The notes: generated from the letters alone by a model not told the origin. A stretch of DNA of 64,000 bases from an uncultured virus (IMG/VR IMGVR_UViG_2879039326_000005) (IMGVR_UViG_2879039326_000005), one strand, 5' to 3'; shown: positions 11,634 through 23,842, counted from the stretch's first letter. Program-made: numbers and translations.

Positions 11634-13454
11634 ATGGCGTATCCCGAAGAGATCCGCAAGGCTGCGAAGGGACTCTACCTTAAGCGATGGCCCCCCCAGG
11701 AGATCAAGGACGAACTGGGGCTCAACTCCTGTCGCATTGTCTACTACTGGGCCGAGAAGCTCGGCTGGCGAGAGTTGCTCACGGACGAGGCGGTGGAGGA
11801 TGCCATCGCCCGCCGGGTCAATGTGCTGCTGGATCGCGAGAAGAAAACCCCGGGCGAGCAGGATGAGCTGGACCGGCTCATCGGCCACCATGTCAGCCTG
11901 AAAGAGAAAGCCCTTAAGTGGGCCGAACGCCAGCAGGCGCTCACCGCCCGCCGCGAGAGTGGCGATGAACCCGCTGCCGAGCTGCCGCGCCGTGGCCGAG
12001 GCGGCCAGGATGGCGGTAGTAGTAAGGGGAGGGGTGGCAAGAAGGGCAAGAACCAGATCGGCCACCTGACAGAGGCAGACTTTGCCGAGTGGCTGGGTAC
12101 CCTGTTTGGCTACCAGCTGCGCTGTCGGGAGGCCAAGAACGACCCGGCCTTGCCGCGCACCCGCAACATCCTCAAGTCACGCCAGATCGGCATGACCTAC
12201 TACTTCGCCGGCGAGGCACTGGAAGATGCCATTCTTACCGGTGGCAACCAGATATTCCTCTCAGCCACCCGCGCCCAGGCGGAGGTGTTTCGCTCCTATA
12301 TCTGCAAGATTGCCCAGACCTTCCTTGGCGTCACCCTGACCGGCAACCCCATCGTCTTGTCGAACGGGGCCGAGCTTATCTTTTGCTCCACCAACTCCAA
12401 CAGCGCCCAGTCCCGCTCGGGCAACGTCTACATCGATGAGTATTTCTGGATCCCCAACTTCGAGCGGCTCTCCGATGTCTCCAGTGCCATGGCCACCCAG
12501 AGCCACTGGCGTAAAACCTACTTCTCGACCCCGTCCAGCAAGGTACATGAAGCGTACCGGTTCTGGACTGGGGATCGCTGGAAGGGTACTCGCCCAAGCC
12601 GGCAGGCTGTTGACTTCCCGGGTGAAGACGACCTGCGCGACGGGGGCCGCATCTGTCCCGATCGGCAGTGGCGTTACGTCATCACCGTCGAGGATGCCAT
12701 ACGCCTGGGCTGTAACCTCATCGACATCGAGGAGCTCAAAGACGAATACCCGGAGGAGGTGTTCGATCGCCTCTACCTGTGCCGGTTTATCGACGATGCC
12801 CTGTCGGTGTTCAAGTTCCAGGACATGGAGCGGGCAGGGGTGGACCCGACTCGGTGGGAGGACTACAAACCCGGGCGGCCCGACCCGTTTGGCCGGCGGG
12901 AGGTGTGGCTGGGGTATGACCCGAGCCGCACCCGCGACAACGCCACCCTGGTGGTGGTGGCCCCGCCCACCGTCGCCGGCGAGCGGTTCCGGGTGCTGGA
13001 AAAGCACTACTGGCGCGGGCTTAACTTCCAGTACCAGGCGCAGGAGATCACGCGGATCGCCAAGAAGTTTCGGGTCACGTATCTGGGGGTCGATGTGTCC
13101 GGCATTGGCGTCGGGGTGTTTGACCTCTTAAAACCCGTGTTCAAGGGGGTATGCCATCCCATCAACTACAGCGTCGAGAGCAAGTCGCGGCTGGTGCTCA
13201 AGATGATCGACGTGGTGGAGGCCAATCGCATCGAGTGGGACTGCGCGGACCGGGATATCCCGCTGGCGTTCCTTGCTATCAAACGCAGCACCACCGGCGG
13301 CGGCCAGATGACGTTTCGGGCCGCCCGCGACAACGTGACCGGCCACGCTGATGTGTTCTTTGCTATCGCCCACGCCGTGGCCAACGAGCCACTCGATACC
13401 AACCGCAAACGCAAATCCAGCTGGGTCACCAGCCAGGAGAGAAAGGCAGCATGA
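11634..13454 (+). CDS. Terminase ATPase subunit (gpP)
   Basis: LKSRQIGMT, YIDEYFW, GYDP and HADxxxA motifs. Confidence 0.95.
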   Translation: MAYPEEIRKAAKGLYLKRWPPQEIKDELGLNSCRIVYYWAEKLGWRELLTDEAVEDAIARRVNVLLDREKKTPGEQDELDRLIGHHVSLKEKALKWAERQQALTARRESGDEPAAELPRRGRGGQDGGSSKGRGGKKGKNQIGHLTEADFAEWLGTLFGYQLRCREAKNDPALPRTRNILKSRQIGMTYYFAGEALEDAILTGGNQIFLSATRAQAEVFRSYICKIAQTFLGVTLTGNPIVLSNGAELIFCSTNSNSAQSRSGNVYIDEYFWIPNFERLSDVSSAMATQSHWRKTYFSTPSSKVHEAYRFWTGDRWKGTRPSRQAVDFPGEDDLRDGGRICPDRQWRYVITVEDAIRLGCNLIDIEELKDEYPEEVFDRLYLCRFIDDALSVFKFQDMERAGVDPTRWEDYKPGRPDPFGRREVWLGYDPSRTRDNATLVVVAPPTVAGERFRVLEKHYWRGLNFQYQAQEITRIAKKFRVTYLGVDVSGIGVGVFDLLKPVFKGVCHPINYSVESKSRLVLKMIDVVEANRIEWDCADRDIPLAFLAIKRSTTGGGQMTFRAARDNVTGHADVFFAIAHAVANEPLDTNRKRKSSWVTSQERKAA

Positions 13455-14467
13455 GCAAACGACAGCAAGCACTGGCCAAGGTGGCCACCCCTTCCACGCG
13501 CCCCTCAGTGGTGTTCAGCATGCCGGAAGAGATAGACCCCACCGCCTGGATGACCGATTACACCGGGGTGTTCTACAACCCCTACGGCGAGTATTACCAG
13601 CCTCCCATCGAGCGTAAGGGGTTGGCCAAGGTGGCCCGGGCCAACGCCCACCACGGGGCTATCTTGATGGCGCGGCGCAACATGGTGGCGGGGCGCTTTA
13701 CCAACCAGCGCGCTACCATCACGGCGTTCGTGCACAACTATCTGCAGTTCGGGGATGCGGGCATGCTTAAAATTCGTAACGGCTTTGGCCAGGTGGTGGG
13801 GCTGCACCCGCTATCGAGCGTCTACCTGCGCCGCCGTGAAGACGGTTGCTTTGTTTACCTGCAGCAGCAGGGCAAGCCGAACCTGATTTACCGGCCGGAG
13901 GATGTGATCTGGTTGGCCCAGTACGACCCCGAGCAGCAGGTTTATGGCATGCCCGATTACCTGGGCGGCCTGCAGTCGGCGCTGCTCAACCAGGATGCCA
14001 CCCTGTTTCGGCGCAAATACTTTCTCAACGGCGCCCACATGGGGTTCATCTTCTACGCCACCGACCCGAACATGGACGATGACACCGAACAGGAGATGAA
14101 GGACAAGATTGCCAACAGCAAGGGGGTAGGGAATTTTCGCTCCATGTTCGTCAACATCCCGGACGGCAAGCCCGACGGCATCAAGCTTATTCCGGTGGGG
14201 GATATAGCAACCAAGGATGAGTTTGCCGCCATCAAGGGGATCACTGCCCAGGACGTGTTGACCAGCCACCGTTTTCCGGCGGCGCTGGCCGGCATTATTC
14301 CGACCAATGGTGGGGGAGGGTTAGGGGATCCCGAGAAGTACGACGCTACCTATGCCCGAAACGAGGTGCTGCCGCTCTGTGAGCTTATCCAGGATGCCAT
14401 CAACAGCGCGGGACTCCCTCGTTCCCTCTGGGTCGATTTTAGGGATACGGTGGGGGAGACTGTATAA
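13451..14467 (+). CDS. Portal protein (gpQ)
   Basis: YGMPDY, FRRKYFLNGAH, KDEF motifs. Confidence 0.95.
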   Translation: MSKRQQALAKVATPSTRPSVVFSMPEEIDPTAWMTDYTGVFYNPYGEYYQPPIERKGLAKVARANAHHGAILMARRNMVAGRFTNQRATITAFVHNYLQFGDAGMLKIRNGFGQVVGLHPLSSVYLRRREDGCFVYLQQQGKPNLIYRPEDVIWLAQYDPEQQVYGMPDYLGGLQSALLNQDATLFRRKYFLNGAHMGFIFYATDPNMDDDTEQEMKDKIANSKGVGNFRSMFVNIPDGKPDGIKLIPVGDIATKDEFAAIKGITAQDVLTSHRFPAALAGIIPTNGGGGLGDPEKYDATYARNEVLPLCELIQDAINSAGLPRSLWVDFRDTVGETV

Positions 14468-14475: not shown

Positions 14476-14532
14476 TCCTTTTAGGGTAAGATCACATCTA
14501 TTGATTGCGTGTTTGATTTATCGGGAGGGGTG

Positions 14533-14784
14533 ATGCGGGTTTATTGCAAAGAGTGTGGCCAACGGGGCCGTATTACCAAAACCAATCAGTTGAGCTCTGC
14601 TGTTGCCGATCTTTACTGCCAATGTACCGATGCCGAGTGTGGCCACAGCTGGGTGGCCACTTTGTCATTCGCCCACACCCTGAGCCCGTCAGCCAAGACC
14701 ACAAACCAGCTGGTGCTGAGCTTGATGGGCTCACTGACGCCAGAGGGGCGGCAGCTAGTATTGCGGGGGATGAGTGGACGATAA
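14533..14784 (+). CDS. ogr: Ogr/Delta-family zinc-finger late activator
   Basis: CKECG...LYCQCTDAECGHSWV...HTLSPS. Confidence 0.9.
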   Translation: MRVYCKECGQRGRITKTNQLSSAVADLYCQCTDAECGHSWVATLSFAHTLSPSAKTTNQLVLSLMGSLTPEGRQLVLRGMSGR

Positions 14785-14805
14785 CAAGTCGATTTCTTAT
14801 AACAG

Positions 14806-14836
14806 GCAGTGGAGGAGGAGGACATCCTCCACTGCA
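14806..14836. terminator. Hairpin between convergent ogr and NTase genes
   Basis: GCAGTGGAGGA...TCCTCCACTGC inverted repeat. Confidence 0.55.
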
Positions 14837-14844
14837 AGACCTAC

Positions 14845-15774
14845 TTACCGGGTAATAGAGGTTTGAGTTTCTTGCTCCGCATATTTTTTTATTTTTTTAT
14901 CAATTTTTTTCTTTGTGTACTCAGAACGGCGAATAAAATCTTTTGATATAAATTCTTCTTCAATGCCTTTCAAGCTCTTGAGATTAAAATGAATAGCATC
15001 AAGAACACTGTGAAAATCAATTTTATGTTTGGCAATGATTCGAATGCTTATATTGTCCTGAAGCAGATAGAATAAGTTATAAAGATATTCCTTGGCCTCT
15101 CTGAAATCTACTTGCTGGAATTTATCTAAAATAAATACAACTAATGGGACTCTCAATGATTTTATTCGCTCGACTTCGGCTGTTATATTTTGTTTTATTT
15201 TCTGATCAATGTTAGCAATTCTAGACCTAACACATGATATAGGGTTAAGGATGCGGATAAGATCGCTCGATGGCGTATCTAACTCTATAGGTAATTGGAA
15301 GGGCTCCGTATTGAGAATTAATTTTTTTTCTTTAAAATCAAGATGCTTGAAGCCTGCTGGAAAATCAATGACATCTACAATATTCGGCTTGATTTCATGT
15401 TCCCCATCGTATAATTCATGGTTCACGTAATACTTACCATTTTCAGATTTTATTTTGTGTGTTACTTTGTCTTTAAGTAATATAAGGGCAAGTGACGGAG
15501 GGGGGCCATTCTCATCTATATTAACATCAACGTTCAATATGGACTCTATGGCTGATAAGTTGGACGCTTTTGTGGAGAAGTCGACATCGTTTGATGCAAT
15601 ATAAACTGATTCTGGTGGAACTCTATAATACGATAAGTAATGAACAACCCAGTAATGAACCGCTTGTCCACCAACTGTTATTATAGGCTCATGAATCTTA
15701 TCTATGTTGTCAATAAGAGCCTTATTAATGAAGAACAGCTGATCTATTGGCTGTAGGAAATCATTTTTGTCCAT
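14845..15774 (-). CDS. Putative nucleotidyltransferase (Pol-beta/AbiEii/MenT-like), AT-rich cargo
   Basis: ITVGGQAVxxW followed by SNDVDF, later VDVI and LNPISCVRSR. Confidence 0.65.
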   Translation of the reverse strand: MDKNDFLQPIDQLFFINKALIDNIDKIHEPIITVGGQAVHYWVVHYLSYYRVPPESVYIASNDVDFSTKASNLSAIESILNVDVNIDENGPPPSLALILLKDKVTHKIKSENGKYYVNHELYDGEHEIKPNIVDVIDFPAGFKHLDFKEKKLILNTEPFQLPIELDTPSSDLIRILNPISCVRSRIANIDQKIKQNITAEVERIKSLRVPLVVFILDKFQQVDFREAKEYLYNLFYLLQDNISIRIIAKHKIDFHSVLDAIHFNLKSLKGIEEEFISKDFIRRSEYTKKKIDKKIKKYAEQETQTSITR

Positions 15775-15807
15775 AAAAAAATACCCCTATGAAATCACAG
15801 GGGTATT
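15775..15807 (-). terminator. Intrinsic terminator-like hairpin that contains the RBS of the NTase gene
   Basis: Minus strand AATACCCCTGTG-ATTT-CATAGGGGTATT followed by T run and then ATG. Confidence 0.7.
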
Positions 15808-15824
15808 CTAACGATTGGTTTTAA

Positions 15825-15995
15825 TTATACAAATAAAAAATTAATGGCACTTTTGGGCCTGTCACTCACACTTTTGAACATAGAGTTAGCTTGCAGAGGC
15901 TTCCTTGGCCTGCGGCCGCTTTTTACTGCCATAACACGAGCATTATAAAGCTTATGTTGGCGCTCTTTGAGAGCTCTTACACTGTTACAAGGCAT
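15825..15995 (-). CDS. Small basic protein upstream of the NTase (candidate antitoxin/leader)
   Basis: MPCNSVRALKERQHKLYNARVMAVKSGRRPRK...; co-oriented, stop about 50 nt before the NTase. Confidence 0.5.
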   Translation of the reverse strand: MPCNSVRALKERQHKLYNARVMAVKSGRRPRKPLQANSMFKSVSDRPKSAINFLFV

Positions 15996-16350
15996 AAGCA
16001 CATCCAAATAGTCTGATTGTGGGCCCGTGTCATAACACTAGACCCATTAGCCATTTCATGCAACCAGTCAACTTCCACTGAAGAATGTGACAGTTTAGCA
16101 ATGGCACACTTACGAACACATCAGCGTTCACAAGGGGTGTGATCCTAACATGAGATAATTTTCGATCCAATAGTGATTAAAAAACATTCTTTATGGCCAG
16201 TGATGATAAGGGCCATGTGTTCATAACATAATGAAAAAAAACAATTTTATCATTCCATATCTATTCTGTGAGTTGGATTTTTCGGCCACATCATGGTGAC
16301 AAGAGGGCTCCAAAAGAGCAGCTTCGCTCCTCTTTGGGCTGCTTGGTGTA

Positions 16351-16366
16351 CTGTTTATTTATACAG
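16351..16366. promoter_or_regulatory. LexA (SOS) box
   Basis: CTGTTTATTTATACAG = CTGT-N8-ACAG, directly upstream of the umuD remnant. Confidence 0.8.
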
Positions 16367-16386
16367 ACATTCAGAGATTGCCAGTA

Positions 16387-16501
16387 TGTTTGTTTAACCC
16401 ACACCTGGTTTATCTCTCTAGTGGCCTGCGGTTTCCCATCGCTGGCGCAGGAGCATCGATCTCAATCAGCTGTGCATTGCTCATCTTGCTGTTGCCTTTA
16501 G
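16387..16501 (+). pseudogene. umuD: umuD N-terminal remnant
   Basis: VACGFPSLAQ then, frameshifted, IDLNQLCIAH (UmuD: AGFPSPA-DY...IDLN-L-I-HP). Confidence 0.75.
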
Positions 16502-16574
16502 GATATGGGCAAGCGACAAGGTCGCTATCCAGCTGTAGCCACCTCATCATCTGAGTACTGGCAAAGAGGAGCAC

Positions 16575-16662
16575 TCAGCACAGGCAACTCGGTGGTATAG
16601 CGGGGGCTTAACTGCTCACGCTTCATAATCTACTCTCAGGTATCCGGTTGTTTTCCTCTCTC
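16575..16662 (-). pseudogene. umuC: umuC C-terminal (DUF4113-like) remnant
   Basis: Minus strand MKREQLSPRYTTELPV preceded by stop-interrupted RGKQPDT*E*I. Confidence 0.7.
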
Positions 16663-17014
16663 GAGTTATGGAGCGTAGATAGTCACAGCCTCTGCCCTCT
16701 TAGTCATCCCGCTTTGCTGATCGGCGTCAAAAAATTAACCAAAATCAGCTCTACTGATAACTTTCACTCACTACGCTGGTCGGCGTTTGATACCCTACTC
16801 ATCCGACCCCGATTATACCAAAGGAAGCCGAGGCGTATTTGATGATTGTTCCCATACTCAATCCGGTTAAAAGCAGCATACAGGGAGCTGAAACCCCGTG
16901 CGGTAGCTATCTTGTTTGCTGAGAGATGTTGAGCAGTAAGACTACTACCAATGAGATCTGTGATCGAATAACCCCCATATATTCACAGATTTCGTCTAGT
17001 AGGTTAGCGTAGAG

Positions 17015-17959
17015 ATGGAAAAACATTCAACAGAGTTTAATTGGATTGATACGAGAGCAAACACATTGCGACATGGTTATTTTTCAAATAATAAGCGGTT
17101 AATTTATTTTGGAGGTGTGTTGCAATATTTTAAGTATTTAAGTCCTCAGCGAATTGATGTTTTAGAGAATTTAAAGATTCGCTATACTCAAGCGATTGCG
17201 CTTAATGACCCATTTGAAGTATTTCCTGCGATAATTGACAAGGGGGAGGATTGGTATTACAAGCAGTTCTTAGCTCGTATTGAAGCTGAGGCAGAACAGT
17301 TTGCATTTAGAAGTGCGGTAAAGAAAAAGCAATTTTTAAGGGCTAGAAAAAAAGAATTCCCTAATTTTTATCGTTGTTATACGGATGAACCATGGCTGAT
17401 GGAACAGGCATATTCAATTGTGATGCTGGATGCCCATGTACAGGGTTATTTAAGTTTAAGTAAAACCAATAAAAATATTCTAATGTGGTCGCATTATGCT
17501 CAAAGCCATGAGGGTTTCGTGATTGGTTTCAATTCTCAGCATAGTTATTTTAATTTCGGCGTTTCCGAAATTGAATACAGTGAAAAACGGCCATTTTTAA
17601 ATCCGCTGCAAGGGCGGCAGGATGCATCATTATTTAGAACAAAGAGTATTGATTGGGCATACGAGCAAGAAGTTAGAAAAAGCATGGAATTTGTTAAGCG
17701 GAGACCGATTGGGAATGGTAATACATTTTTACCATATCCAGAAGTACTGCCAGATCATGCTGATGAGATATATAAAAAAGTAAGGCTGTTTGATTTCCCT
17801 AAAGATGCAATAAGCTCATTGGTTTTTGGGTGGAAATCAACAAATGAATTGAGACGTTCTCTTGTTCATTTGCTAGAGTTTCATGGGCTTTCGTCTGTTA
17901 AAGTAATGCAGGCAGTACCACATTCAAGAAAGTATGAAATGGTTGTCGAGGAAATATAA
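17015..17959 (+). CDS. DUF2971-domain protein (start probably GTG/TTG at 17117-17120)
   Basis: LNDPFE, LMWSHYAQSHEGFVIGF and TKSIDWAYEQEVR motifs. Confidence 0.85.
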   Translation: MEKHSTEFNWIDTRANTLRHGYFSNNKRLIYFGGVLQYFKYLSPQRIDVLENLKIRYTQAIALNDPFEVFPAIIDKGEDWYYKQFLARIEAEAEQFAFRSAVKKKQFLRARKKEFPNFYRCYTDEPWLMEQAYSIVMLDAHVQGYLSLSKTNKNILMWSHYAQSHEGFVIGFNSQHSYFNFGVSEIEYSEKRPFLNPLQGRQDASLFRTKSIDWAYEQEVRKSMEFVKRRPIGNGNTFLPYPEVLPDHADEIYKKVRLFDFPKDAISSLVFGWKSTNELRRSLVHLLEFHGLSSVKVMQAVPHSRKYEMVVEEI

Positions 17960-18087
17960 GCTTACCAACCTATTTTAAGGGGGGTACAATCTCATGGTAT
18001 TTTTCTATGCGTTGTAAAGGTGCGTTGTAAAGGTGCTTTGTAGAGGCTTCGGTACTGCGTTATTAAAAACTTAACGTGGTATGGTAT
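17960..18087 (+). repeat. Degenerate long (Vibrio VXR-like) attC site
   Basis: Begins at the stop codon, ~128 bp, with blocks TGGTATTTTTCTATGCGTTG and GGCTTCGGTACTGCGTT...CTTAAC; R boxes mutated. Confidence 0.55.
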
Positions 18088-18103
18088 TAATCAAGGAGGA
18101 TTT

Positions 18104-18610
18104 GTGCAGACACGTAAAGATGTTCTTAAAGAATGGTACAAGCGAGTGGCAGTAACGCAAGCTGCACATTATTATTCCGCCGATAGTTTAAATAATAGGA
18201 AGTATTGGCTGGGTGTGCCAACGGTTATTTTGACCACGCTAGTTGGTACATCAGTATTTGCTACGGTCTCACAGGAAAACACGGAAGCTTGGGTGAAAAT
18301 ATGTTTAGGGTTGGCAAGTGTAATTGCTGCATTATTGGCAAGTTTGCAAACATTTCTTGGTGATTCAGAAAGATCAGAAAAACATCGGATAGCTGGTGCG
18401 AAGTATGGTGCTTTAGGCCGAGAGCTTGAGTTTATACTTACTATCGAGCAGGATATTGGTGAGGTTCGGTTCGATAATTTAAGGGTTAAGCTAGATGAAT
18501 TAGCTCTTGAATCTCCCAATAACCAACTTAAAATTTATCGTATGGCTGGAGCAAAAGATATTAAAGTTTTACCAAATGACAAAGAAGCTAGCCCACCTCA
18601 ATTAGCTTAA
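18104..18610 (+). CDS. SLATT-domain 2TM effector protein
   Basis: AHYxxA, two TM helices (WLGVPTVIL..., LGLASVIAALLASLQTFL), EKHRxAGxKY; RBS AGGAGG. Confidence 0.85.
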   Translation: MQTRKDVLKEWYKRVAVTQAAHYYSADSLNNRKYWLGVPTVILTTLVGTSVFATVSQENTEAWVKICLGLASVIAALLASLQTFLGDSERSEKHRIAGAKYGALGRELEFILTIEQDIGEVRFDNLRVKLDELALESPNNQLKIYRMAGAKDIKVLPNDKEASPPQLA

Positions 18611-18971
18611 TTTTACCTCACAAAATACTTAAGAGGAAAAATCTGGGGCACACATCTTACTTGGCAAGTCATAGTCTAGCAGGCCGTTGATAATGGACTG
18701 GTGATGGATGAAAAAGTTTGTGCACTAGGCACCACAATCAGCATGTTCACGAAAAATAGCACAAAACCATGTCGGCAGCGTAGTTTAGGTGCTCTATTGG
18801 AATCGAGATACTGTGAGACCTGAGTTTTTTCTGACTATAGTTATGCGCGAATTTCTGGTAATGCTGTTTATCATCTATCGAAGTAGAGTCAACAGTCATC
18901 ATCATTGATGAGCACATAAACACATATCAATGCCCAAAAATTTTTGGGAATTTTTAATATTGGGAGTTATT

Positions 18972-19829
18972 GTGAGTCTTGTTCAAATTCATTTTGATGG
19001 CGATATAGCGGTTAATCACCAAGTGAGCATGAGAACGTTGGGTAAAACACTTATCCACCTGCAAAACTCAATCGATAGAGCCTATTTAGAGCAACATTAT
19101 GGGCAGTTATGGAAATTTGCGAAAATGCGGCAGGAGTTCTACTCAGATGTTGAACTATTGGTGCAAGAACCGAGGGAGGGTGGTTATGTTCTTGATTTTT
19201 TATCGTCAAATCCAGTAACCAAATCTGTCATAAATCGGGTTTCTAGTGCTGTAAATGGTGCTGTGGAAGCTTCAAAGAAAGCAGGGCTGGATAAAGCGAC
19301 TAAGATTGAAGAATCTTTAAGCAAAAGGATTTCACAAGTTGAAAGTGGAATTCTAGTTCCCAAAGATCTTAGGACGATGATAGACAACCCCGATGCTTCA
19401 GTAATAAGGCAATATGGAGATCGGGCTATCTCTAGAGAAATCGATCAAATACTTTCCATCATTAGGTCTAGCCACGCAGGAGATAGTACCTTTGAACTTA
19501 CATTAAGGGGCGATAAATCTATTAAATTCGAATTTAATAAAACATCTGCAGGCAGCTTTCATTCAACTGTTTCTCGCAGAGAATTGGGCGAGCCAGTTCT
19601 ATATAATGCCACTATATCATCACTAGATCGGCATAATAATAATGGTAAAATATATAACTTGATTACGGAGAAAGTGGCTAACATTCATTTTTTCAATGAA
19701 AGTTTTCTTGAGATGGCAATGCCATTTTTTCAAGGAAAAAAAGCAATGACTTTTGTTGGTTCACCTTTGATAGAATACGGTGCATTTGACCCAAATGCAG
19801 GGGATATTTATTTCATTAAGTTGGCGTAA
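18972..19829 (+). CDS. Hypothetical soluble protein, AT-rich cargo
   Basis: Long ORF; GTG after GGGAG; no recognisable motif. Confidence 0.8.
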   Translation: MSLVQIHFDGDIAVNHQVSMRTLGKTLIHLQNSIDRAYLEQHYGQLWKFAKMRQEFYSDVELLVQEPREGGYVLDFLSSNPVTKSVINRVSSAVNGAVEASKKAGLDKATKIEESLSKRISQVESGILVPKDLRTMIDNPDASVIRQYGDRAISREIDQILSIIRSSHAGDSTFELTLRGDKSIKFEFNKTSAGSFHSTVSRRELGEPVLYNATISSLDRHNNNGKIYNLITEKVANIHFFNESFLEMAMPFFQGKKAMTFVGSPLIEYGAFDPNAGDIYFIKLA

Positions 19830-19831
19830 TT

Positions 19832-20491
19832 ATGGAAGAACTGGCGAAGGCAGTACAAAAAAAGTATGTTGAAGATATTACTAAAAAATATCCTATTCAT
19901 CGCTTTTTTGTAATGTTTATAGTGCTAATTTCATCGTACATGTATGCTAAGCCTGATGATGTTAGGATTTTATCTGAACTTAAAAAAATTAAAGTCAACT
20001 TCATTTTAGACTTCAAATCAGGCTTGCTCGCTTCTGTGAATTTTGAGCAGCTTGTAGTTTCAATTCTAGTCACAGGAGCCATTGGTTACTTCTATTCATG
20101 GATTAGCAGTAGATCCTTTAATATTTTATCTAAGGCTTCCTCATTTAATTGTTACATATCTGAAATCAAGGAGAAAGTTGATGCTAGAAAGTCAGAGCAA
20201 GAATTATTGAATTACTTTCTTGCTAAAGATGTATCAAAAGAACTTGAAGGTTTGAGGGTTAAGTTAAAATCATTCCATACAAGCTCTGAAGTATTTGTTG
20301 TTATATCTCTATGCATCGGCTGGGGAGGGAGAGCAAATTCATTTTTAGATTGGATTATAGTTGTGGCTTTTATTTTTTTGGTGGGTTTAAATTTTTGGAA
20401 GGCATTTAAGTTTTATATCTCTGATTTTTTACCATATTACATTACAGAGCAAACTTTATTAGGCTCTACGGTTGAGTTTGGTGATAAATAG
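19832..20491 (+). CDS. Hypothetical membrane protein (about 4 TM)
   Basis: Starts 2 nt after the previous stop; four hydrophobic segments. Confidence 0.8.
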   Translation: MEELAKAVQKKYVEDITKKYPIHRFFVMFIVLISSYMYAKPDDVRILSELKKIKVNFILDFKSGLLASVNFEQLVVSILVTGAIGYFYSWISSRSFNILSKASSFNCYISEIKEKVDARKSEQELLNYFLAKDVSKELEGLRVKLKSFHTSSEVFVVISLCIGWGGRANSFLDWIIVVAFIFLVGLNFWKAFKFYISDFLPYYITEQTLLGSTVEFGDK

Positions 20492-20493
20492 AC

Positions 20494-20565
20494 ATCTGAC
20501 AAGCTACTACACATGGAAATTTCCCTAGTTTAATTTAAAAAATTCTAGTGAGTAAAGAGTTATGT
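20494..20565 (+). repeat. Degenerate short attC site
   Basis: ATCTGAC-AAGC-TACT(A)CAC ... GTGAGTA-AAGA-GTTATGT: paired L boxes with an extrahelical base and terminal GTT. Confidence 0.6.
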
Positions 20566-20680
20566 TCTAAATCCTCAGCACGAGAAATCAGATAAGGGTC
20601 CCGTTCTCGGAAAGAGTGATTGGCGCCTTAGACTATTCACATCGCAGTGCGGGGCTCTTAAATATTTCCTATCTCTCGAT

Positions 20681-21005
20681 TTAACTGTGGTCAGCCATAA
20701 CCTGGTGCAGTGATAGCTTGTACCTTGGTATGAGCTGTTCGGCTGAGCTAGAGTTGGTGCAATTGATACGGGTTAGGCACATCGGCGGCGATAGCCGGTA
20801 TGGCCCGCGATGCAGGACGAGGATGGTGGCGGCGCAGGATGGCGCAGGCCACGGCCTGTTGTTTGCCCTGCCGCAGTCCCACCGACTGACTGATCTCATT
20901 GGTTGGTCCGTGCGGCTGGAGGATACAGGTCACCCGAATATCCAGGCGGTTGTAATCCTCCCGGCGGACGGTCTGGGTGCTGGCACCTGGGCTGTTGTTT
21001 CTCAT
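20681..21005 (-). pseudogene. Probable internally deleted/frameshifted phage gene downstream of gpA
   Basis: Coding-like sequence split across two frames (...VPNPYQLHQL* / ...AEQLIPRYKLSLHQVMADHS*). Confidence 0.35.
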
Positions 21006-21006
21006 G

Positions 21007-23286
21007 TTATGCTTCCAACGCTTGTACGCTGTAATCATTCTGCTCTTGTAACCACTCCGGTGCATCCAGCCCTTCTAGTACCCGCCACATCTCCGACTGA
21101 TAGGGCGCGGGCAGCATCTTGACCCAGCTGTACGCTCCAGCATGGCCCTGTGCTTGGTATACCTTGCCGCACAGCTCAACCAGCATCGGCCAGTCCTGAT
21201 CGCCTTCCGGTACCGCGTCCTCATCCGGCTGGCCCTGTTCGGCTAGACGCAGTCCCTCTGGCTGCCAATCCGGCTCGATCGGGATCGCTATGCACGACTG
21301 CACCTGTCCGTTCTCAAGCCAGAGGGTGAAGCCATCTGCTGTGACGCTGGCGCCAGCCCGCAAACGCTCGATGGAGAAGGGCGATAACCCCCATTGCTCT
21401 ACCATCAACTGATCCGCGAACGCCGCTGGATCCGGCTGCGTACAGTTATTGTCAGAGCTCCAAGGAGCCGGGCTGTCGCCCGACTGAACCCCAACCCCCA
21501 AACCTGAACCCCCGGCGGCCTTGGTGGCCTGGTATGTGCCTTCGGGTACCACTTCCCACCCTTGCAGGCGGGTCTTGATACCCAAGCGGGCGGTGTGCAG
21601 TCCCATCAAACGCTTGATGTCTTCGCCGTAGCAGTTGGCCTGCTCCTCAATGAGGTGGGCCAGCTTGATGGGGTGCTCGGCACGAGTGGCCAGTGCTCCG
21701 CCCATAGCGTGGAGGTAGCAGCGAAAGATGCCGTTATCAGCGGCATAGCGGGCCGCCTCAAAGCGTGGATCTTGCAACACGGGTTTGGGTGGCCCCACCA
21801 GATCGCCGTGCTTCTTGGCGTTACTGATACGGCGCAGCTCGCGCCATACCCCGACCGGTGCGCCGCCGATCTGCTGGAAGGTACGGATCCCCCACCAACT
21901 CGCCCAGGCGCAGGCATGCTGGGCACCAATGTCTGCTTTGGTGCCGGCTTCGTCATCCCCGTCAACGTGTTCGCCATCGATGTTTTTGGCGATATAGGCG
22001 GCGATGTAGCCGGTGGCATCTCCTTTGGCTGGGTCGATCTCCTTCCAGTCAAAGCGGGGGGTGATGTCGGTGAAGGGGATCCCCAGATTGCTGCGCTCCA
22101 GCTCCTGGAGGTTATGGCTCAGGGCGTAATGCTGGAGGGTGCTTATCACACGCCATTTGTCGGCCGGGCGCATAAACAGCAGCAGGTGCCAGTGAGGTGT
22201 CCCGTCATGGTGAGGTTCGCAGACCCGAAAGCCATAGAGCGGCATACCCCAACGTTTCAAATATGAGCGGGCACGGCTCCACAGCTTTCCCATATAGGCG
22301 CAGGTTTCGCGCGGGGTGGCGCCTTCATACTTCTCGTTTTCGATGGTCTTGCCGTTGCGGCCTGTCTTCCAAGAATGGAAGCGGCTCGGGGCCGTCCAAG
22401 TGAAGAACACCCCCACATGGCCCTGCTCCTCAGCGTAGTCCTCAAAGCCGCGCATGCGGGTCATCATTTCATTGCGGCGGTTGACCGGGTTGGAGGTGCT
22501 GGCTTCCCAGCAATCCTTCATCGATACCACCAGATCGTGCTGGGTGTTCATCACCTCAGACTCTGCCAGCCAGCGCAGCATTGCCCGCTTACGCTCGCGC
22601 ACCACCTTCATGGTGGCGTTCGAGATATAGGCGGATACGCCTTTGCGTACCTTGCCGAGCAAAATGGCGGTGTGCTCCTGCAGCCTGTCCCAGCAACGGT
22701 TAACCCTGCGTTCCCACCACTTGGCAGAAAGCAGGCGTACCATCACCCGGATAATCCATTCATCCTGGTTTTCCTGGCGCTTGAACTTGGGCATCCGAGG
22801 GGTGAACTTCCACTGATCGGCCGGTTGGCGGATGGCTTCCCAGGTCAGCAGCAGATCCGGTACATCGCCGGCTTTGATGCCCTGTTCGATGTGGCGCCAG
22901 ATCGCGGCCGTCTGGTTGGCGAACAGATGTGCGACACGCTTGCGCCCCTCTTCATCGCGCATGGTCTGCGGGTCGACCGGGATCGCCTGGATAAGACCGC
23001 GCACCCATTTAGTGCGCTCACGCAACCAGATGTTGGCGCTGCGGCAGTTCCGGCTTGTGCCATCTTTACGGCGGCGCATGTACTGTTTGAACAGAGTCAG
23101 GGTGAGCTGTGATGACAGGCCATCGAACAGTTGAATGGCCCAGACCAGATCGCTCTGGCCTGGGGTACCAATAAAGACGGGGCCAAGGGCACTGATGTCG
23201 ATACCGGGCAGGGAGTTGGCAAGGGTATCGATGCGCTGCCGCAGTGTCCTCCTGGACAGCGGCAGCTTGGTGGTCTGGCGGTTCAT
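21007..23286 (-). CDS. Replication endonuclease gpA (rolling circle)
   Basis: FTWTAPSRFH, EPHHDGTPHWH, GYIAAYIAKNIDG motifs. Confidence 0.95.
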   Translation of the reverse strand: MNRQTTKLPLSRRTLRQRIDTLANSLPGIDISALGPVFIGTPGQSDLVWAIQLFDGLSSQLTLTLFKQYMRRRKDGTSRNCRSANIWLRERTKWVRGLIQAIPVDPQTMRDEEGRKRVAHLFANQTAAIWRHIEQGIKAGDVPDLLLTWEAIRQPADQWKFTPRMPKFKRQENQDEWIIRVMVRLLSAKWWERRVNRCWDRLQEHTAILLGKVRKGVSAYISNATMKVVRERKRAMLRWLAESEVMNTQHDLVVSMKDCWEASTSNPVNRRNEMMTRMRGFEDYAEEQGHVGVFFTWTAPSRFHSWKTGRNGKTIENEKYEGATPRETCAYMGKLWSRARSYLKRWGMPLYGFRVCEPHHDGTPHWHLLLFMRPADKWRVISTLQHYALSHNLQELERSNLGIPFTDITPRFDWKEIDPAKGDATGYIAAYIAKNIDGEHVDGDDEAGTKADIGAQHACAWASWWGIRTFQQIGGAPVGVWRELRRISNAKKHGDLVGPPKPVLQDPRFEAARYAADNGIFRCYLHAMGGALATRAEHPIKLAHLIEEQANCYGEDIKRLMGLHTARLGIKTRLQGWEVVPEGTYQATKAAGGSGLGVGVQSGDSPAPWSSDNNCTQPDPAAFADQLMVEQWGLSPFSIERLRAGASVTADGFTLWLENGQVQSCIAIPIEPDWQPEGLRLAEQGQPDEDAVPEGDQDWPMLVELCGKVYQAQGHAGAYSWVKMLPAPYQSEMWRVLEGLDAPEWLQEQNDYSVQALEA
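21441..21470 (-). other. Rolling-circle origin inside gene A
   Basis: Minus strand CCTTGGAGCTCTGACAATAACTGT resembles the P2 ori CCTCGGAGTCCTGTCAATAACTGT. Confidence 0.7.
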
Positions 23287-23540
23287 TGGGCAGTGGTACC
23301 TAGCAGGGAGTTGAGGGCACAGCGGTGGCCCTTGATCACCAGGGAGGAGTGGGCACAGATGCGACGGGCCGCTGTGCACTGGCGCAGTGTCAGCGCGATG
23401 GTGGCCTTTGGCCTTGGCGAGAGCTGGCGGCACTCGATGAGCAGGTGCTGGTACCCACGCAGGCGGGCACTGGCGCCCCGCAGGTCTTCCCACCACCAAC
23501 CCAAGTCCCGCTCCATCATTGATATCAGGCGGTAGTTCAT
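23283..23540 (-). CDS. Hypothetical early protein
   Basis: ATGA overlaps on both sides within the early operon. Confidence 0.65.
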   Translation of the reverse strand: MNYRLISMMERDLGWWWEDLRGASARLRGYQHLLIECRQLSPRPKATIALTLRQCTAARRICAHSSLVIKGHRCALNSLLGTTAQ

Positions 23541-23842
23541 TTGATGGTTGCCCCCAGTCCGTGCATGGGCGACACATCCGCCCACCAGTTCGCAATGGTG
23601 GTTGCCAGCGCGGTTTCAGCACTGCCCAGCGCCAGCCAGTACAAGGCGCGGATCGCGCCCAGTGCCAGCAGCTCATCTACTTCTGTTCGAGGGCAGTTAC
23701 TTGTTCTCTCGAACTCTGCGTGTGCCGCTTGCCAGTGTTTGGTCAATTGGCTGACCGATGCCGGCGGTTGCATATGAGCTGGGCCGGTTTCGCTGCCTAG
23801 CTCATCGGTCGGGGCCTCCAGTTCAAACAGCTCATCAGTCAT
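23537..23842 (-). CDS. Hypothetical early protein
   Basis: ATGA-coupled ORF. Confidence 0.7.
   Translation of the reverse strand: MTDELFELEAPTDELGSETGPAHMQPPASVSQLTKHWQAAHAEFERTSNCPRTEVDELLALGAIRALYWLALGSAETALATTIANWWADVSPMHGLGATIK

What the first reader, a model, noticed from the sequence alone, without database searches (positions are those of the whole stretch)
17015..20565. Prophage cargo genes each followed by a decayed integron attC-like site: a fossil cassette array inside a P2 defence hotspot
Seen: three co-oriented AT-rich units (DUF2971; SLATT; 286 aa + 4-TM pair) are each followed within a few bases of the stop codon by an attC-like element. Site 17960-18087 is ~128 bp and has blocks I recognise from long Vibrio-type attC repeats. 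Site 20494-20565 has TACT(A)CAC/GTGAGTA paired L boxes with an extrahelical base, an inner stem and a terminal GTT. Site 18615-18692 is weaker (ACCTCAC...CTTAAGAGG...TAGCAGGCCGTTGA). In all three the AAC of the R'' box is mutated, and no intI is present in the window. Known: integron cassettes often encode anti-phage functions, and the Q-A interval of P2-like phages is a defence hotspot. Inference: this phage acquired integron cassettes and fixed them, a route from integrons to prophage defence hotspots.
Basis: partly seen in the sequence, partly recalled or inferred. Interest (0 to 1): 0.85.

Follow-up and report, generated by a model that had tools for sequence, protein, structure and literature searches.

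The report
Fossil integron cassettes in prophage hotspot
Two of the three claimed sites are real but decayed integron recombination sites, so this Aeromonas P2-like prophage took cargo genes from integrons, and related prophages still carry an intact integron insertion site in the same variable region.

Summary
The window holds a P2-like (phiO18P-type) prophage of Aeromonas salmonicida. Its variable region (14764-20673) lies between ogr and the gpA operon.

- **Site 3 (20494-20565): a decayed attC.** It is the best hit in the whole window for two attC covariance models built here (23.2 and 26.6 bits, E about 1e-3). It aligns without gaps (48 of 72 identical) to an intact attC (39.6 bits). That attC follows the same two-gene cassette (76-82% nucleotide identity) in an Aeromonadaceae genome that has an integron integrase.
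- **Site 1 (17960-18087): a decayed long Vibrio-type attC.** A sequence profile scores it 16.9 bits (E 1.8e-4); 0 of 500 shuffles reach 10 bits. Its R boxes and hairpin are lost.
- **Site 2 (18611-18692): no support from any test.**
- **No intI** was found in the window or in the nearest genome.

Related prophages go further. At least 15 of 75 carry attC hits and/or an orphan attI region in the same hotspot. Each attC hit starts within a few bases of a co-oriented ORF's stop codon, and one cassette encodes PD-T7-5.

Integron parts in phages are already published. Their place in the P2-like defence hotspot was not found in print.

The parts
14509..14784 (+). ogr/delta-type late activator; last backbone gene before the variable region
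   Evidence: Pfam Ogr_Delta E 3.2e-14. Homology to phiO18P, A051 and most of the related prophage loci compared ends at about 14749-14764.
14764..20673 (.). Variable hotspot between ogr and the gpA operon; AT-rich from 14800 to 20600
   Evidence: Backbone homology stops near 14763 and resumes at 20674-20681. G+C is 0.31-0.46 inside and about 0.6 outside. The region is identical in G001 and in an A. salmonicida ATCC 33658 contig.
16680..16925 (+). Leader module ahead of the + oriented cargo. It contains a JUMPstart/ops element at 16874-16910.
   Evidence: Rfam RF01707, 35.7 bits against a gathering score of 35. Parts of the module are 70-78% identical in L102/L103, L109, L140, L154 and L163; in L109, L140 and L154 it lies right after ogr. 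The ops-like GTGCGGTAGCTAT also stands in L109 and in a chromosomal JUMPstart of G001. RfaH is present in G001 at 173 bits.
17015..17959 (+). Cassette 1 gene: DUF2971 protein (PADLOC candidate defence family PDC-S31)
17960..18087 (+). Site 1: decayed long Vibrio-type attC, with both R boxes mutated and an internal 13-nt triple repeat
   Evidence: nhmmer 16.9 bits, E 1.8e-4. A second profile gives 10.9 bits. Best chance score is 8.9 bits in 1.53 Mb of real DNA and 8.2 bits in 500 shuffles. Alignment A7. Not seen by the covariance model. Bottom-strand fold -4.8 kcal/mol against -12.8 and -14.4 for relatives.
18104..18610 (+). SLATT_4 two-TM protein; starts 17 nt after site 1
18611..18692 (+).
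18972..19829 (+). Cassette 3, first gene (285 aa from GTG 18972; 299 aa if read from ATG 18930); function unknown
   Evidence: The homologue in G612 is 89-93% identical in protein and starts at the matching GTG, 45 nt after an attC. Weak DUF7946 match, E 0.002.
19832..20491 (+). Cassette 3, second gene: 219-aa hydrophobic protein
   Evidence: Co-linear with the G612 cassette at 76% over 1286 nt. Hydrophobic stretches.
20494..20565 (+). Site 3: decayed 72-nt attC that ends cassette 3
   Evidence: R1 23.2 bits, E 0.0015; R2 26.6 bits, E 6.7e-4; top hit in the window both times. 48 of 72 identical, without gaps, to the G612 attC of 39.6 bits; similarity drops right after GTTA, to 12 of the 25 positions aligned beyond the site.
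21007..23676 (-). gpA replication protein; backbone on the far side of the hotspot
   Evidence: Pfam Phage_GPA E 1.4e-81.

Best explanation
The cargo of this prophage's ogr-gpA hotspot is a relic of an integron cassette array.

**What the units are**
- At least two units were made as integron cassettes, meaning a promoterless ORF or ORF pair followed directly by an attC.
- Unit 1 is the DUF2971 gene plus site 1.
- Unit 3 is the 285-aa and 219-aa gene pair plus site 3.
- The SLATT gene sits between them like a cassette, but its own 3' site cannot be recognised.

**State of the sites**
- The attC sites have since lost their R-box triplets and most of their hairpin.
- I infer they are scars that an integrase can no longer use, which fixes the genes in the phage.

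**Expression (inferred)**
- The genes are probably read from the leader upstream, which carries a JUMPstart/ops element.
- The host's RfaH would then carry RNA polymerase through the 3.7 kb of AT-rich foreign DNA.

**Function (by family name only)**
- The gene products most likely act in anti-phage defence: DUF2971 belongs to the candidate family PDC-S31, and SLATT proteins are membrane effectors.

**How the cassettes entered the phage is not shown.** Relatives keep an intact attI with different cassettes behind it. I therefore think the most likely route (about 0.5) is an integron integrase acting in trans on phage-borne sites. The other route is capture of an array segment by ordinary recombination.
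For: **The models work.** Positive control: 311 hits at E<=0.01 in 536 kb beside intI genes, and all 300 listed rows lie on the expected strand. The modelled structure pairs in 90.3% of 771 cells, against 64.5% in shuffles.

**Site 3**
- Top hit of R1 and of R2 in the window.
- Orthologous cassette in G612 at 76% over 1286 nt and 82% over 287 nt. It is flanked by attC sites of 40.3 and 39.6 bits. G612 has an IntI of 408 bits at a contig end.
- Gapless alignment to the G612 attC, 48 of 72 identical, with similarity dropping after GTTA.

**Site 1**
- nhmmer E 1.8e-4.
- Controls: 1.53 Mb of real DNA gives at most 8.9 bits outside true attC sites. 0 of 500 shuffles reach 10 bits.
- Collinear alignment.

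**Architecture.** Sites 1 and 3 start 0 and 2 nt after a stop codon. The 12 attC hits paired with an ORF in eight related hotspots start from 6 nt inside to 11 nt after the stop of a co-oriented ORF.

**Decay.** Bottom-strand folds are -3.3 kcal/mol for site 3 against -8.8 for its orthologue. Site 1 gives -4.8 against -12.8 and -14.4 for intact relatives.

**Expression**
- JUMPstart at 35.7 bits and RfaH in G001.
- RNA-library contigs from 3 of 4 runs (4 studies) cover about 16.1-21.4 kb in one piece.
Against: - Site 2 shows nothing in any test.
- The covariance model misses site 1.
- None of the sites folds better than shuffles, though an intact attC also scored only z -0.32.
- Model E-values are rough by the tool's own statement.
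- Only 1 of 16 DUF2971-relative loci lies next to attC sites. 0 of 10 SLATT-relative loci do.
- The 39%-identical relative of the 285-aa gene in G481 has no attC nearby.
- The G612 cassette lies on contigs of 1.5 and 1.1 kb, so its physical link to that genome's intI is not shown.
- No IntI was found in the nearest genome G001.
- The RNA evidence is contigs only. It gives no strand and no start, and DNA carry-over is not excluded.
- No defence assay exists.
Confidence: 0.85

Rival explanations
1. The sites are still working attC sites. The region would then be a live cluster of attC sites without an integrase, whose cassettes an integrase supplied in trans can excise and move.
For: Site 3 keeps R' GTTATGT, the AAG spacer and L boxes with a bulged base. 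It scores like some genuine sites: the Vibrio sp. J1-1 attC scores 26.8 bits with the same model. IntI is present in 5 of 46 Aeromonas genomes searched.
Against: - On the bottom strand, only 4 of the 7 R-box pairs of site 3 are Watson-Crick; this is read by hand from the alignment.
- The AAC triplet reads GAC.
- In site 1 both R boxes are altered.
- Folding is 2.5-3 times weaker than in intact relatives.
- Site 3 scores 13 bits below its orthologue.
Confidence: 0.1
2. The flow ran the other way. The genes arose as phage hotspot cargo and were later recruited into integrons, and the site similarity reflects that history.
For: Cassette origins are generally unknown. The same genes are found in both contexts.
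Against: The sites belong to attC families typical of chromosomal arrays: the Vibrio type and the short type in G612. They are intact in the integron genome and decayed in the phage.
Confidence: 0.05
3. The resemblances are chance or reflect other signals, such as terminators or regulatory repeats in AT-rich intergenic DNA.
For: - The folds are unremarkable.
- Site 1 holds a 13-nt triple repeat.
- Two further model hits in the island are at chance level, E 0.87-7.
Against: - The orthologous attC in G612.
- The shuffle and real-DNA controls for site 1.
- Site 3 scores 13.5 bits above the next hit in the same AT-rich island.
Confidence: 0.03

Closest known systems
CALIN / SALIN: clusters of attC sites, or single attC sites, lacking an integron integrase (IntegronFinder categories)
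   Same: attC-type sites directly after ORFs, with no intI nearby. The categories are named in passages of preprint 10.1101/2024.07.02.601686. The defining papers are recalled, not read here.
   Different: Here the sites are decayed (one missed by a covariance model, one unrecognisable), they lie inside a prophage hotspot, and they follow an ops-bearing leader. IntegronFinder itself was not run.
Integrons and attC clusters in phage genomes (Qi et al. 2023, PMC9892861)
   Same: Phages can carry integron integrases, attI and attC sites and cassettes; 21 phages are reported (abstract and passages read).
   Different: A word search of that text finds 'Aeromonas', 'P2-like' and 'Peduovir' 0 times. 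Their cases are whole or partial integrons and attC clusters. They are not cargo of a defined variable hotspot, and not an orphan attI without intI.
Defence hotspots of P2-like phages and P4-like satellites (Rousset et al. 2022, PMC9122126)
   Same: A variable region in a conserved P2-like backbone holding anti-phage genes (title and start of abstract seen).
   Different: That work concerns E. coli. I did not read its text, so I cannot say whether attC sites were looked for.
Integron cassettes as defence gene stores (preprints 10.1101/2024.07.02.601686 and 10.1101/2024.07.02.601719)
   Same: Cassettes encode compact anti-phage systems. Homologues of some systems occur in prophages (passages; abstract start only for the second).
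   Different: They report homologues in prophages. In the passages I saw, they do not report attC or attI sites inside prophage hotspots.
Gene cassettes fixed at secondary sites outside integrons (recalled from the 1990s literature; not read here)
   Same: A cassette inserted away from attI loses one good partner site and becomes fixed.
   Different: No junction in this window could be tied to such an event.

Membership tests
attC site (integron cassette recombination site) | Inverse core R'' (..AAC) and core R' (GTT..) that pair with each other | tested here: not met
   - Site 3: R' is GTTATGT, but R'' is ATCTGAC (GAC instead of AAC).
- Site 1: the R'' position reads CTTACC and the R' position ATGGTAT.
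- Site 2: none found.
attC site (integron cassette recombination site) | L''/L' helix with an extrahelical base, inside an overall R-L...L-R architecture scored by a covariance model | tested here: inconclusive
   - Site 3: met, 23.2 and 26.6 bits, E about 1e-3, with 7 of 8 L pairs and one bulged base.
- Site 1: 2.3 bits.
- Site 2: 2.4 bits.
attC site (integron cassette recombination site) | Homology to attC sites of known cassette arrays | tested here: met
   - Site 3: orthologous to the G612 attC.
- Site 1: hit by the Vibrio-type profile, E 1.8e-4, with controls.
- Site 2: none.
attC site (integron cassette recombination site) | Stable bottom-strand hairpin | tested here: not met
   Sites 3, 1 and 2 fold at -3.3, -4.8 and -3.9 kcal/mol, with z +0.32, +1.14 and +0.37. 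Intact relatives fold at -8.8 to -14.4.
attC site (integron cassette recombination site) | Recombination by an integron integrase | not testable with these tools
   Needs an attC x attI assay.
Complete integron | intI gene with an adjacent attI | tested here: not met
   - No IntI in the window or in G001.
- No hit of the Aeromonas attI profile in the window at E<=1.
[quoted passage not shown] | Two or more detectable attC sites close together without intI. The exact thresholds are recalled, not checked. | tested here: inconclusive
   Two sites lie 2.4 kb apart, but only one passes a covariance model. IntegronFinder was not run.
P2-like prophage variable hotspot | Variable segment at a fixed place in a conserved P2-like backbone | tested here: met
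   Terminase, portal, Ogr and gpA are present. Every other related locus holds different DNA between the same flanks; only L096 and L097 share the cargo.
JUMPstart / ops leader (Rfam RF01707) | Score at or above the family's gathering score, and RfaH present in the host | tested here: met
   35.7 bits against 35, so only just. RfaH scores 173 bits against a cut-off of 144.5 in G001. Dependence on RfaH was not tested.

The most novel reading that the evidence does not exclude
The ogr-gpA hotspot of Aeromonas P2-like phages may work as a mobile integron platform without its own integrase.

**What was seen**
- In 10 of 75 related prophage loci, the intI-attI intergenic region of an Aeromonas chromosomal integron sits in the hotspot (profile scores of 64 bits or more). 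Four more loci give weaker or partial hits. No intI accompanies it.
- Conservation stops exactly after GTTA in all 14 aligned copies, phage and chromosomal alike.
- Different cassettes, each an ORF plus attC, follow that point.
- In L122, L156 and L098, different attC bodies abut the same backbone sequence, TTAGGTC.

**What it would mean**
- A host or plasmid integrase acting in trans could load and swap cassettes in the prophage.
- Temperate phages would then sample the integron cassette pool for defence genes and carry cassettes between hosts.
- The array in this window would be the fossil end state, re-wired to an RfaH-dependent leader.
Probability: 0.35. Interest if true: 0.85.

Novelty: new variant of a known kind. 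Interest (0 to 1): 0.68.

Why it matters
Two current ideas were separate: integrons are stores of compact anti-phage genes, and P2-like prophages carry a hotspot of such genes. This locus joins them with sequence evidence, because the same cassette is intact in an integron genome and fossilised in a prophage.

The related prophages suggest regular traffic rather than one accident, since they hold an orphan attI with varied cassettes behind it. If an integrase in trans can load these sites, temperate phages would be a vehicle for cassette spread, and integrons a supplier of prophage defence genes. That can be tested directly with standard attC x attI assays.

It also offers a practical tool. 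Scanning prophage hotspots for attC and attI relics would mark gene boundaries and the origin of unknown cargo.

Tried and rejected
- **Strict box search.** A search for RYYYAAC...GTTRRRY found at most 2 sites per true array, so it was too strict. Relaxed boxes plus folding replaced it, and then covariance models.
- **Fold z-scores as a test of attC identity.** They are insensitive: an intact Vibrio-type site gave z -0.32.
- **blastn-short of the sites against 254 attC sequences.** Uninformative.
- **G002, the 'nearest virus record'.** It does not share this hotspot or its flanks.
- **Own assembly.** Not held, so G001 was used instead.
- **Metagenome scan with the 299-aa protein.** Only three loci, each with a 32-residue match. 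No use.
- **DNA search of the cargo against plasmids and GenBank phages.** No match.
- **Fetched integron arrays.** They hold no relative of the SLATT, 299-aa, 219-aa or 309-aa proteins.
- **Model hits at 15806-15891 and 18922-19008.** Chance level, E 0.87-7. The first abuts a terminator hairpin of the RNA noted under 'noticed in passing'.
- **Left end of the + oriented array at a GTT crossover.** Similarity between the window and L154 runs about 12 nt past the GTT, so there is no support.
- **The motif hit at window 49137.** It lies in coding DNA and is chance.
- **Tandem repeats near the abundant RNA.** None found.
- **RNA contigs.** They cannot give strand, ends or level.
- **Earlier findings of this scan.** None on record.
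- **Search of G001 with model R1.** Only 150 of 546 candidates were scored and site 3 was not reported, so that call gives no genome-wide false-positive rate.
- **Not used.** Structure prediction, fold search and complex prediction.
Full report
**1. Setting**

The window holds a P2-like prophage.
- Terminase (11634-13454), portal (13451-14467) and an Ogr/Delta activator (14509-14784) read rightwards. The gpA replication gene (21007-23676) reads leftwards.
- Between them lies a segment of 31-46% G+C in a backbone of about 60%.
- The nearest named phages are Aeromonas phages A051, phiO18P and P05B (genus Bielevirus). They match only the flanks, covering 22-25% of an 8-kb query at 81-83% identity.
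- The island is 100% identical in genome G001. The DUF2971 gene lies on a contig titled Aeromonas salmonicida subsp. salmonicida ATCC 33658.
- Against phiO18P, A051 and 77 related prophage loci found through the portal protein, homology ends near 14763 and resumes at 20674-20681. No locus other than two identical ones (L096, L097) shares the cargo genes.
- The variable hotspot is therefore 14764-20673.

**2. The genes**

| Coordinates | Strand | Product | Evidence |
|---|---|---|---|
| 17015-17959 | + | DUF2971 protein | Pfam E 4.3e-7; PADLOC candidate family PDC-S31, E 8.3e-31 |
| 18104-18610 | + | SLATT_4 protein | NCBIfam E 1.1e-40; PADLOC '2TM effector', E 9.5e-18 |
| 18930-19829 | + | 299 aa, or 285 aa from GTG 18972 | weak DUF7946 match only |
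| 19832-20491 | + | 219 aa, hydrophobic | no family |

**3. Building a test for attC sites**

Rfam returned no integron family in the region, so I built my own models.
- Integron integrases (NCBIfam TIGR02249, over the cut-off) were found in 111 of 301 genomes of the class and 72 of 151 of the order. None was found in G001.
- I fetched 40 stretches on the cassette side of intI genes. Thirty-five were long enough to use.
- A relaxed box-plus-fold search gave 66 candidates. After removing near-duplicates and 12 doubtful ones, 42 were aligned.
- The R''-L''...L'-R' structure pairs in 90.3% of 771 cells against 64.5% in shuffles, with changes on both sides in 14 of 19 pairs.
- Model R1 then found 311 sites at E<=0.01 in 536 kb of these arrays, scoring from about 26 to 102 bits. 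All 300 listed rows lie on the expected strand.
- A second model, R2, was built from 150 matches drawn from the more varied arrays.

**4. Site 3 (20494-20565)**

- With filters off over all 64 kb and both strands, it is the best hit of R1 (23.2 bits, E 0.0015) and of R2 (26.6 bits, E 6.7e-4). The next hit scores 13 bits.
- The alignment shows AAG after R'', an L helix with one bulged base, and R' GTTATGT. R'' reads ATCTGAC.

The decisive evidence came from the genes.
- A search of 401 genomes of the order found the 299-aa protein at 89-93% identity in G612. G612 belongs to a sister genus of the same family; in the first sample of that genus, 4 of 4 genomes had IntI.
- At DNA level the match is 76% over 1286 nt and 82% over 287 nt.
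- In G612 the gene pair is preceded by an attC of 40.3 bits that ends 45 nt before the GTG start. It is followed, right after the stop codon, by an attC of 39.6 bits. A further cassette with an attC of 43.9 bits lies upstream.
- G612 has an IntI of 408 bits at the end of a contig.
- The G612 attC and site 3 are both 72 nt and align without gaps, 48 of 72 identical. Upstream coding sequence matches at 24 of 28; beyond the site only 12 of the 25 aligned positions match, so similarity drops after GTTA, which is where a cassette boundary falls.
- Site 3 scores 13 bits below its orthologue. Its bottom strand folds at -3.3 kcal/mol against -8.8.

**5. Site 1 (17960-18087)**

- The covariance models do not see it: 2.3 bits at best in a 181-nt search.
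- Its sequence resembled the long sites of two fetched arrays. A profile of 15 such sites hit 17991-18079 on the + strand at 16.9 bits, E 1.8e-4, with envelope 17969-18086. This was the only hit below E 1 in the window.
- A second, separately built profile of 36 long sites gave 10.9 bits, E 0.013.
- Control on real DNA: in 1.53 Mb of other loci the profile found six true sites at 32-65 bits, and nothing else above 8.9 bits.
- Control on shuffles: 500 dinucleotide shuffles of the cargo (1.87 Mb) gave at most 8.2 bits.
- The multiple alignment is collinear from R'' to R', at 52-63% identity with seven of the eight sites compared and 38% with the eighth (L154a). Both R boxes are altered, and a 13-nt triple repeat overwrites part of the centre.
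- The fold is -4.8 kcal/mol against -12.8 and -14.4 for intact relatives.

**6. Site 2 (18611-18692)**

Nothing supports it.
- The covariance model gives 2.4 bits.
- No hit came from seven sequence profiles at E<=10 or from blastn-short.
- The fold is at the level of shuffles.

The 320 nt between the SLATT gene and the next gene remain unexplained.

**7. Homologues elsewhere**

The results here are mixed, and I give them in full.
- Of 16 loci with DUF2971 relatives (22-42% identity), only one lies next to attC sites. In Vibrio sp. J1-1 the gene starts 20 nt after a Vibrio-type attC (64.8 bits by profile, 26.8 by R2), with a second site one cassette upstream.
- Of 10 loci with SLATT relatives (29-41% identity), none has an attC within 1.5 kb at E<=1.
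- The 39% relative of the 299-aa gene in G481 has none either.
- The cargo has no DNA match in the plasmid or GenBank phage collections.

**8. Related prophages**

Models R1 and R2 were run over 1.4 Mb of related prophage loci.
- R1 gave 6 hits and R2 gave 9 hits at E<=10. All lie in the hotspot just after ogr.
- The best is L122, at 50.9 bits.
- Profiles added L126 (52.7 and 40.4 bits), L154 (58.1 and 32.0 bits), L114 and L130.
- The 12 attC hits paired with an ORF in eight of these hotspots (L098, L101, L109, L113, L122, L126, L154, L156) start from 6 nt inside to 11 nt after the stop of a co-oriented ORF. Sites 1 and 3 of the window start 0 and 2 nt after theirs. The second site of L126 and the hits in L114 and L130 were not paired with an ORF.
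- Among the cassette ORFs, one in L098 matches PD-T7-5 (E 6.1e-129). L098's portal is 98% identical to the window's.
- L109 holds an Mrr-type nuclease and an HNH protein. Ten of the 15 ORFs scanned have no Pfam family, and ten have no PADLOC family.

**9. An orphan attI in the relatives**

- The leftward-reading cassettes in these hotspots are preceded by a shared module of about 165-285 nt.
- The same module heads attC arrays in Aeromonas chromosomes: G354 (three places), G438, and G001 contig 91.
- In G724 it lies back to back with a broken intI, starting 20 nt inside the gene's 5' end and ending 235 nt away.
- In G354 a 57-residue remnant of the IntI N-terminus lies beside it.
- In an alignment of 14 copies (6 chromosomal, 8 from prophages), conservation runs to ...CCATCTAATCACTGTTA. 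Every sequence diverges directly after GTTA, a few bases before a ribosome-binding site and start codon.
- This is the intI-attI intergenic region, with the crossover point at G|TT.
- A profile of it hits 10 of 75 non-identical prophage loci at 64 bits or more, and four more at 15-51 bits (one partial), always on the same strand. Eight of these were in the training alignment. It gives no hit in the window.
- No IntI remnant is found in any of these prophage hotspots.
- In L122, L156 and L098, three different attC bodies abut the same backbone sequence at ...|TTAGGTC.
- Taking attC hits and attI hits of 50 bits or more together, 15 of 75 loci carry integron parts in the hotspot. Counting the three weakest attI hits as well gives 17.
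- IntI is over the cut-off in 5 of 46 Aeromonas genomes searched.

**10. Expression**

- Just upstream of the cargo, Rfam finds a JUMPstart element at 16874-16910, scoring 35.7 bits against a gathering score of 35.
- The surrounding 245 nt recur (in full or in part) in six related prophage loci; in three of them they lie right after ogr. They are 74-80% identical to two chromosomal JUMPstart regions of G001.
- The ops-like core GTGCGGTAGCTAT is shared with L109 and one chromosomal copy.
- G001 encodes RfaH.
- By established knowledge, RfaH loads at ops and suppresses termination in long foreign operons (abstract starts of PMC2871177 and PMC9765446 seen).
- In contigs of RNA libraries from four studies, one contig spans about 16.1-21.4 kb in 3 of 4 runs. 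In the fourth it breaks at 18933-18962.
- Contigs show presence in RNA libraries. They do not show strand, start or a single transcript.

**11. Reading**

- Shown: units 1 and 3 carry relics of attC sites, and unit 3 exists as a true cassette elsewhere.
- Inferred: the sites no longer work; the cargo is read from the ops leader; the genes defend against phages.
- Not shown: how the cassettes entered the phage. In the window no junction could be tied to an integrase crossover.

**12. Literature**

- Qi et al. 2023 (PMC9892861; abstract and passages read) report integron integrases, attI and attC sites and attC clusters in 21 phages. A word search of the text finds no 'Aeromonas', 'P2-like' or 'Peduovir'.
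- Preprint 10.1101/2024.07.02.601686 (passages read) shows that cassettes encode defence systems and that some homologues lie in prophages.
- Three full-text searches found no paper on attC or attI sites in P2-like hotspots: attC + prophage + integron cassettes + defense + P2-like; CALIN + attC sites + prophages + IntegronFinder + phage genomes; attC + P2-like + integron.
- Supplements were not examined. Those of Qi et al. could list further phages.

**13. Verdict**

The thing is a new variant of a known kind: integron parts in a phage, here as fossil cassettes in the P2-like defence hotspot. Relatives suggest a live attI-based platform.

Noticed in passing
window 15779-16130 (probably - strand) and 14845-15774 (-): RNA-library contigs from four studies pile up 250-1000 times deeper over about 15.81-16.12 kb than on either side, with many 60-88-nt variant contigs. 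On the - strand this stretch folds well (z -3.24, 0 of 100 shuffles as good). It ends in a 14-bp hairpin plus U7 right before the start codon of the 309-aa gene. That protein is nearest to 'putative nucleotidyltransferase' clusters, with AbiEii only as a faint lead. It may be an abundant small RNA paired with a nucleotidyltransferase. There is no Rfam family and no tandem repeat.
   Followed up: partly
window 16874-16910 (+), leader 16680-16925: A JUMPstart/ops element sits ahead of the prophage cargo. It is shared in part with other prophage hotspots and resembles chromosomal copies in G001, which also encodes RfaH. My one text search, on JUMPstart + RfaH + prophage + ops element, listed no title on an RfaH-dependent leader for prophage defence cargo.
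   Followed up: partly
L098, L099, L100, L101, L113, L116, L120, L122, L126, L127, L156 (hotspots, - strand): An orphan attI region of an Aeromonas chromosomal integron, without intI, heads the cassettes in related prophage hotspots. All copies diverge right after GTTA.
   Followed up: yes
L122:11371-11391, L156:11376-11396, L098:2421-2441: Three different attC bodies meet the same backbone sequence, TTAGGTC..., at the crossover position. This is what cassette exchange at one fixed site would leave.
   Followed up: partly
L087/L206 (G001 contig 91): Elsewhere in the nearest A. salmonicida genome, an attI-like head, a 307-aa ORF and a 129-nt Vibrio-type attC (29.7 bits) form a lone cassette without intI. 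Its R'' also reads TGAC.
   Followed up: partly
G354 contigs 46, 28, 18, 26, 44: An Aeromonas genome without a full IntI has clusters of 4-5 attC sites. The cluster on contig 46 keeps the attI region and a 57-residue IntI remnant, so it looks like a decayed integron.
   Followed up: partly
L098:2514-3557 (-): A cassette ORF in the hotspot of a close relative (portal 98% identical) matches the defence protein family PD-T7-5 (E 6.1e-129). An attC of 22.3 bits follows it.
   Followed up: partly
window 16500-16542 vs 14639-14681: A 43-nt inverted copy (77% complementary) of part of ogr lies inside the hotspot. The neighbouring 16590-16645 recurs, inverted, in a dozen related hotspots. This may be a scar of rearrangement.
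   Followed up: no
window 18009-18047: Three tandem 13-nt units (GCGTTGTAAAGGT-like) lie inside site 1, where intact relatives have unique sequence.
   Followed up: no
window 18930 vs 18972: The third cargo gene probably starts at GTG 18972. That is where homology with the G612 cassette gene begins, and its start codon lies there.
   Followed up: partly
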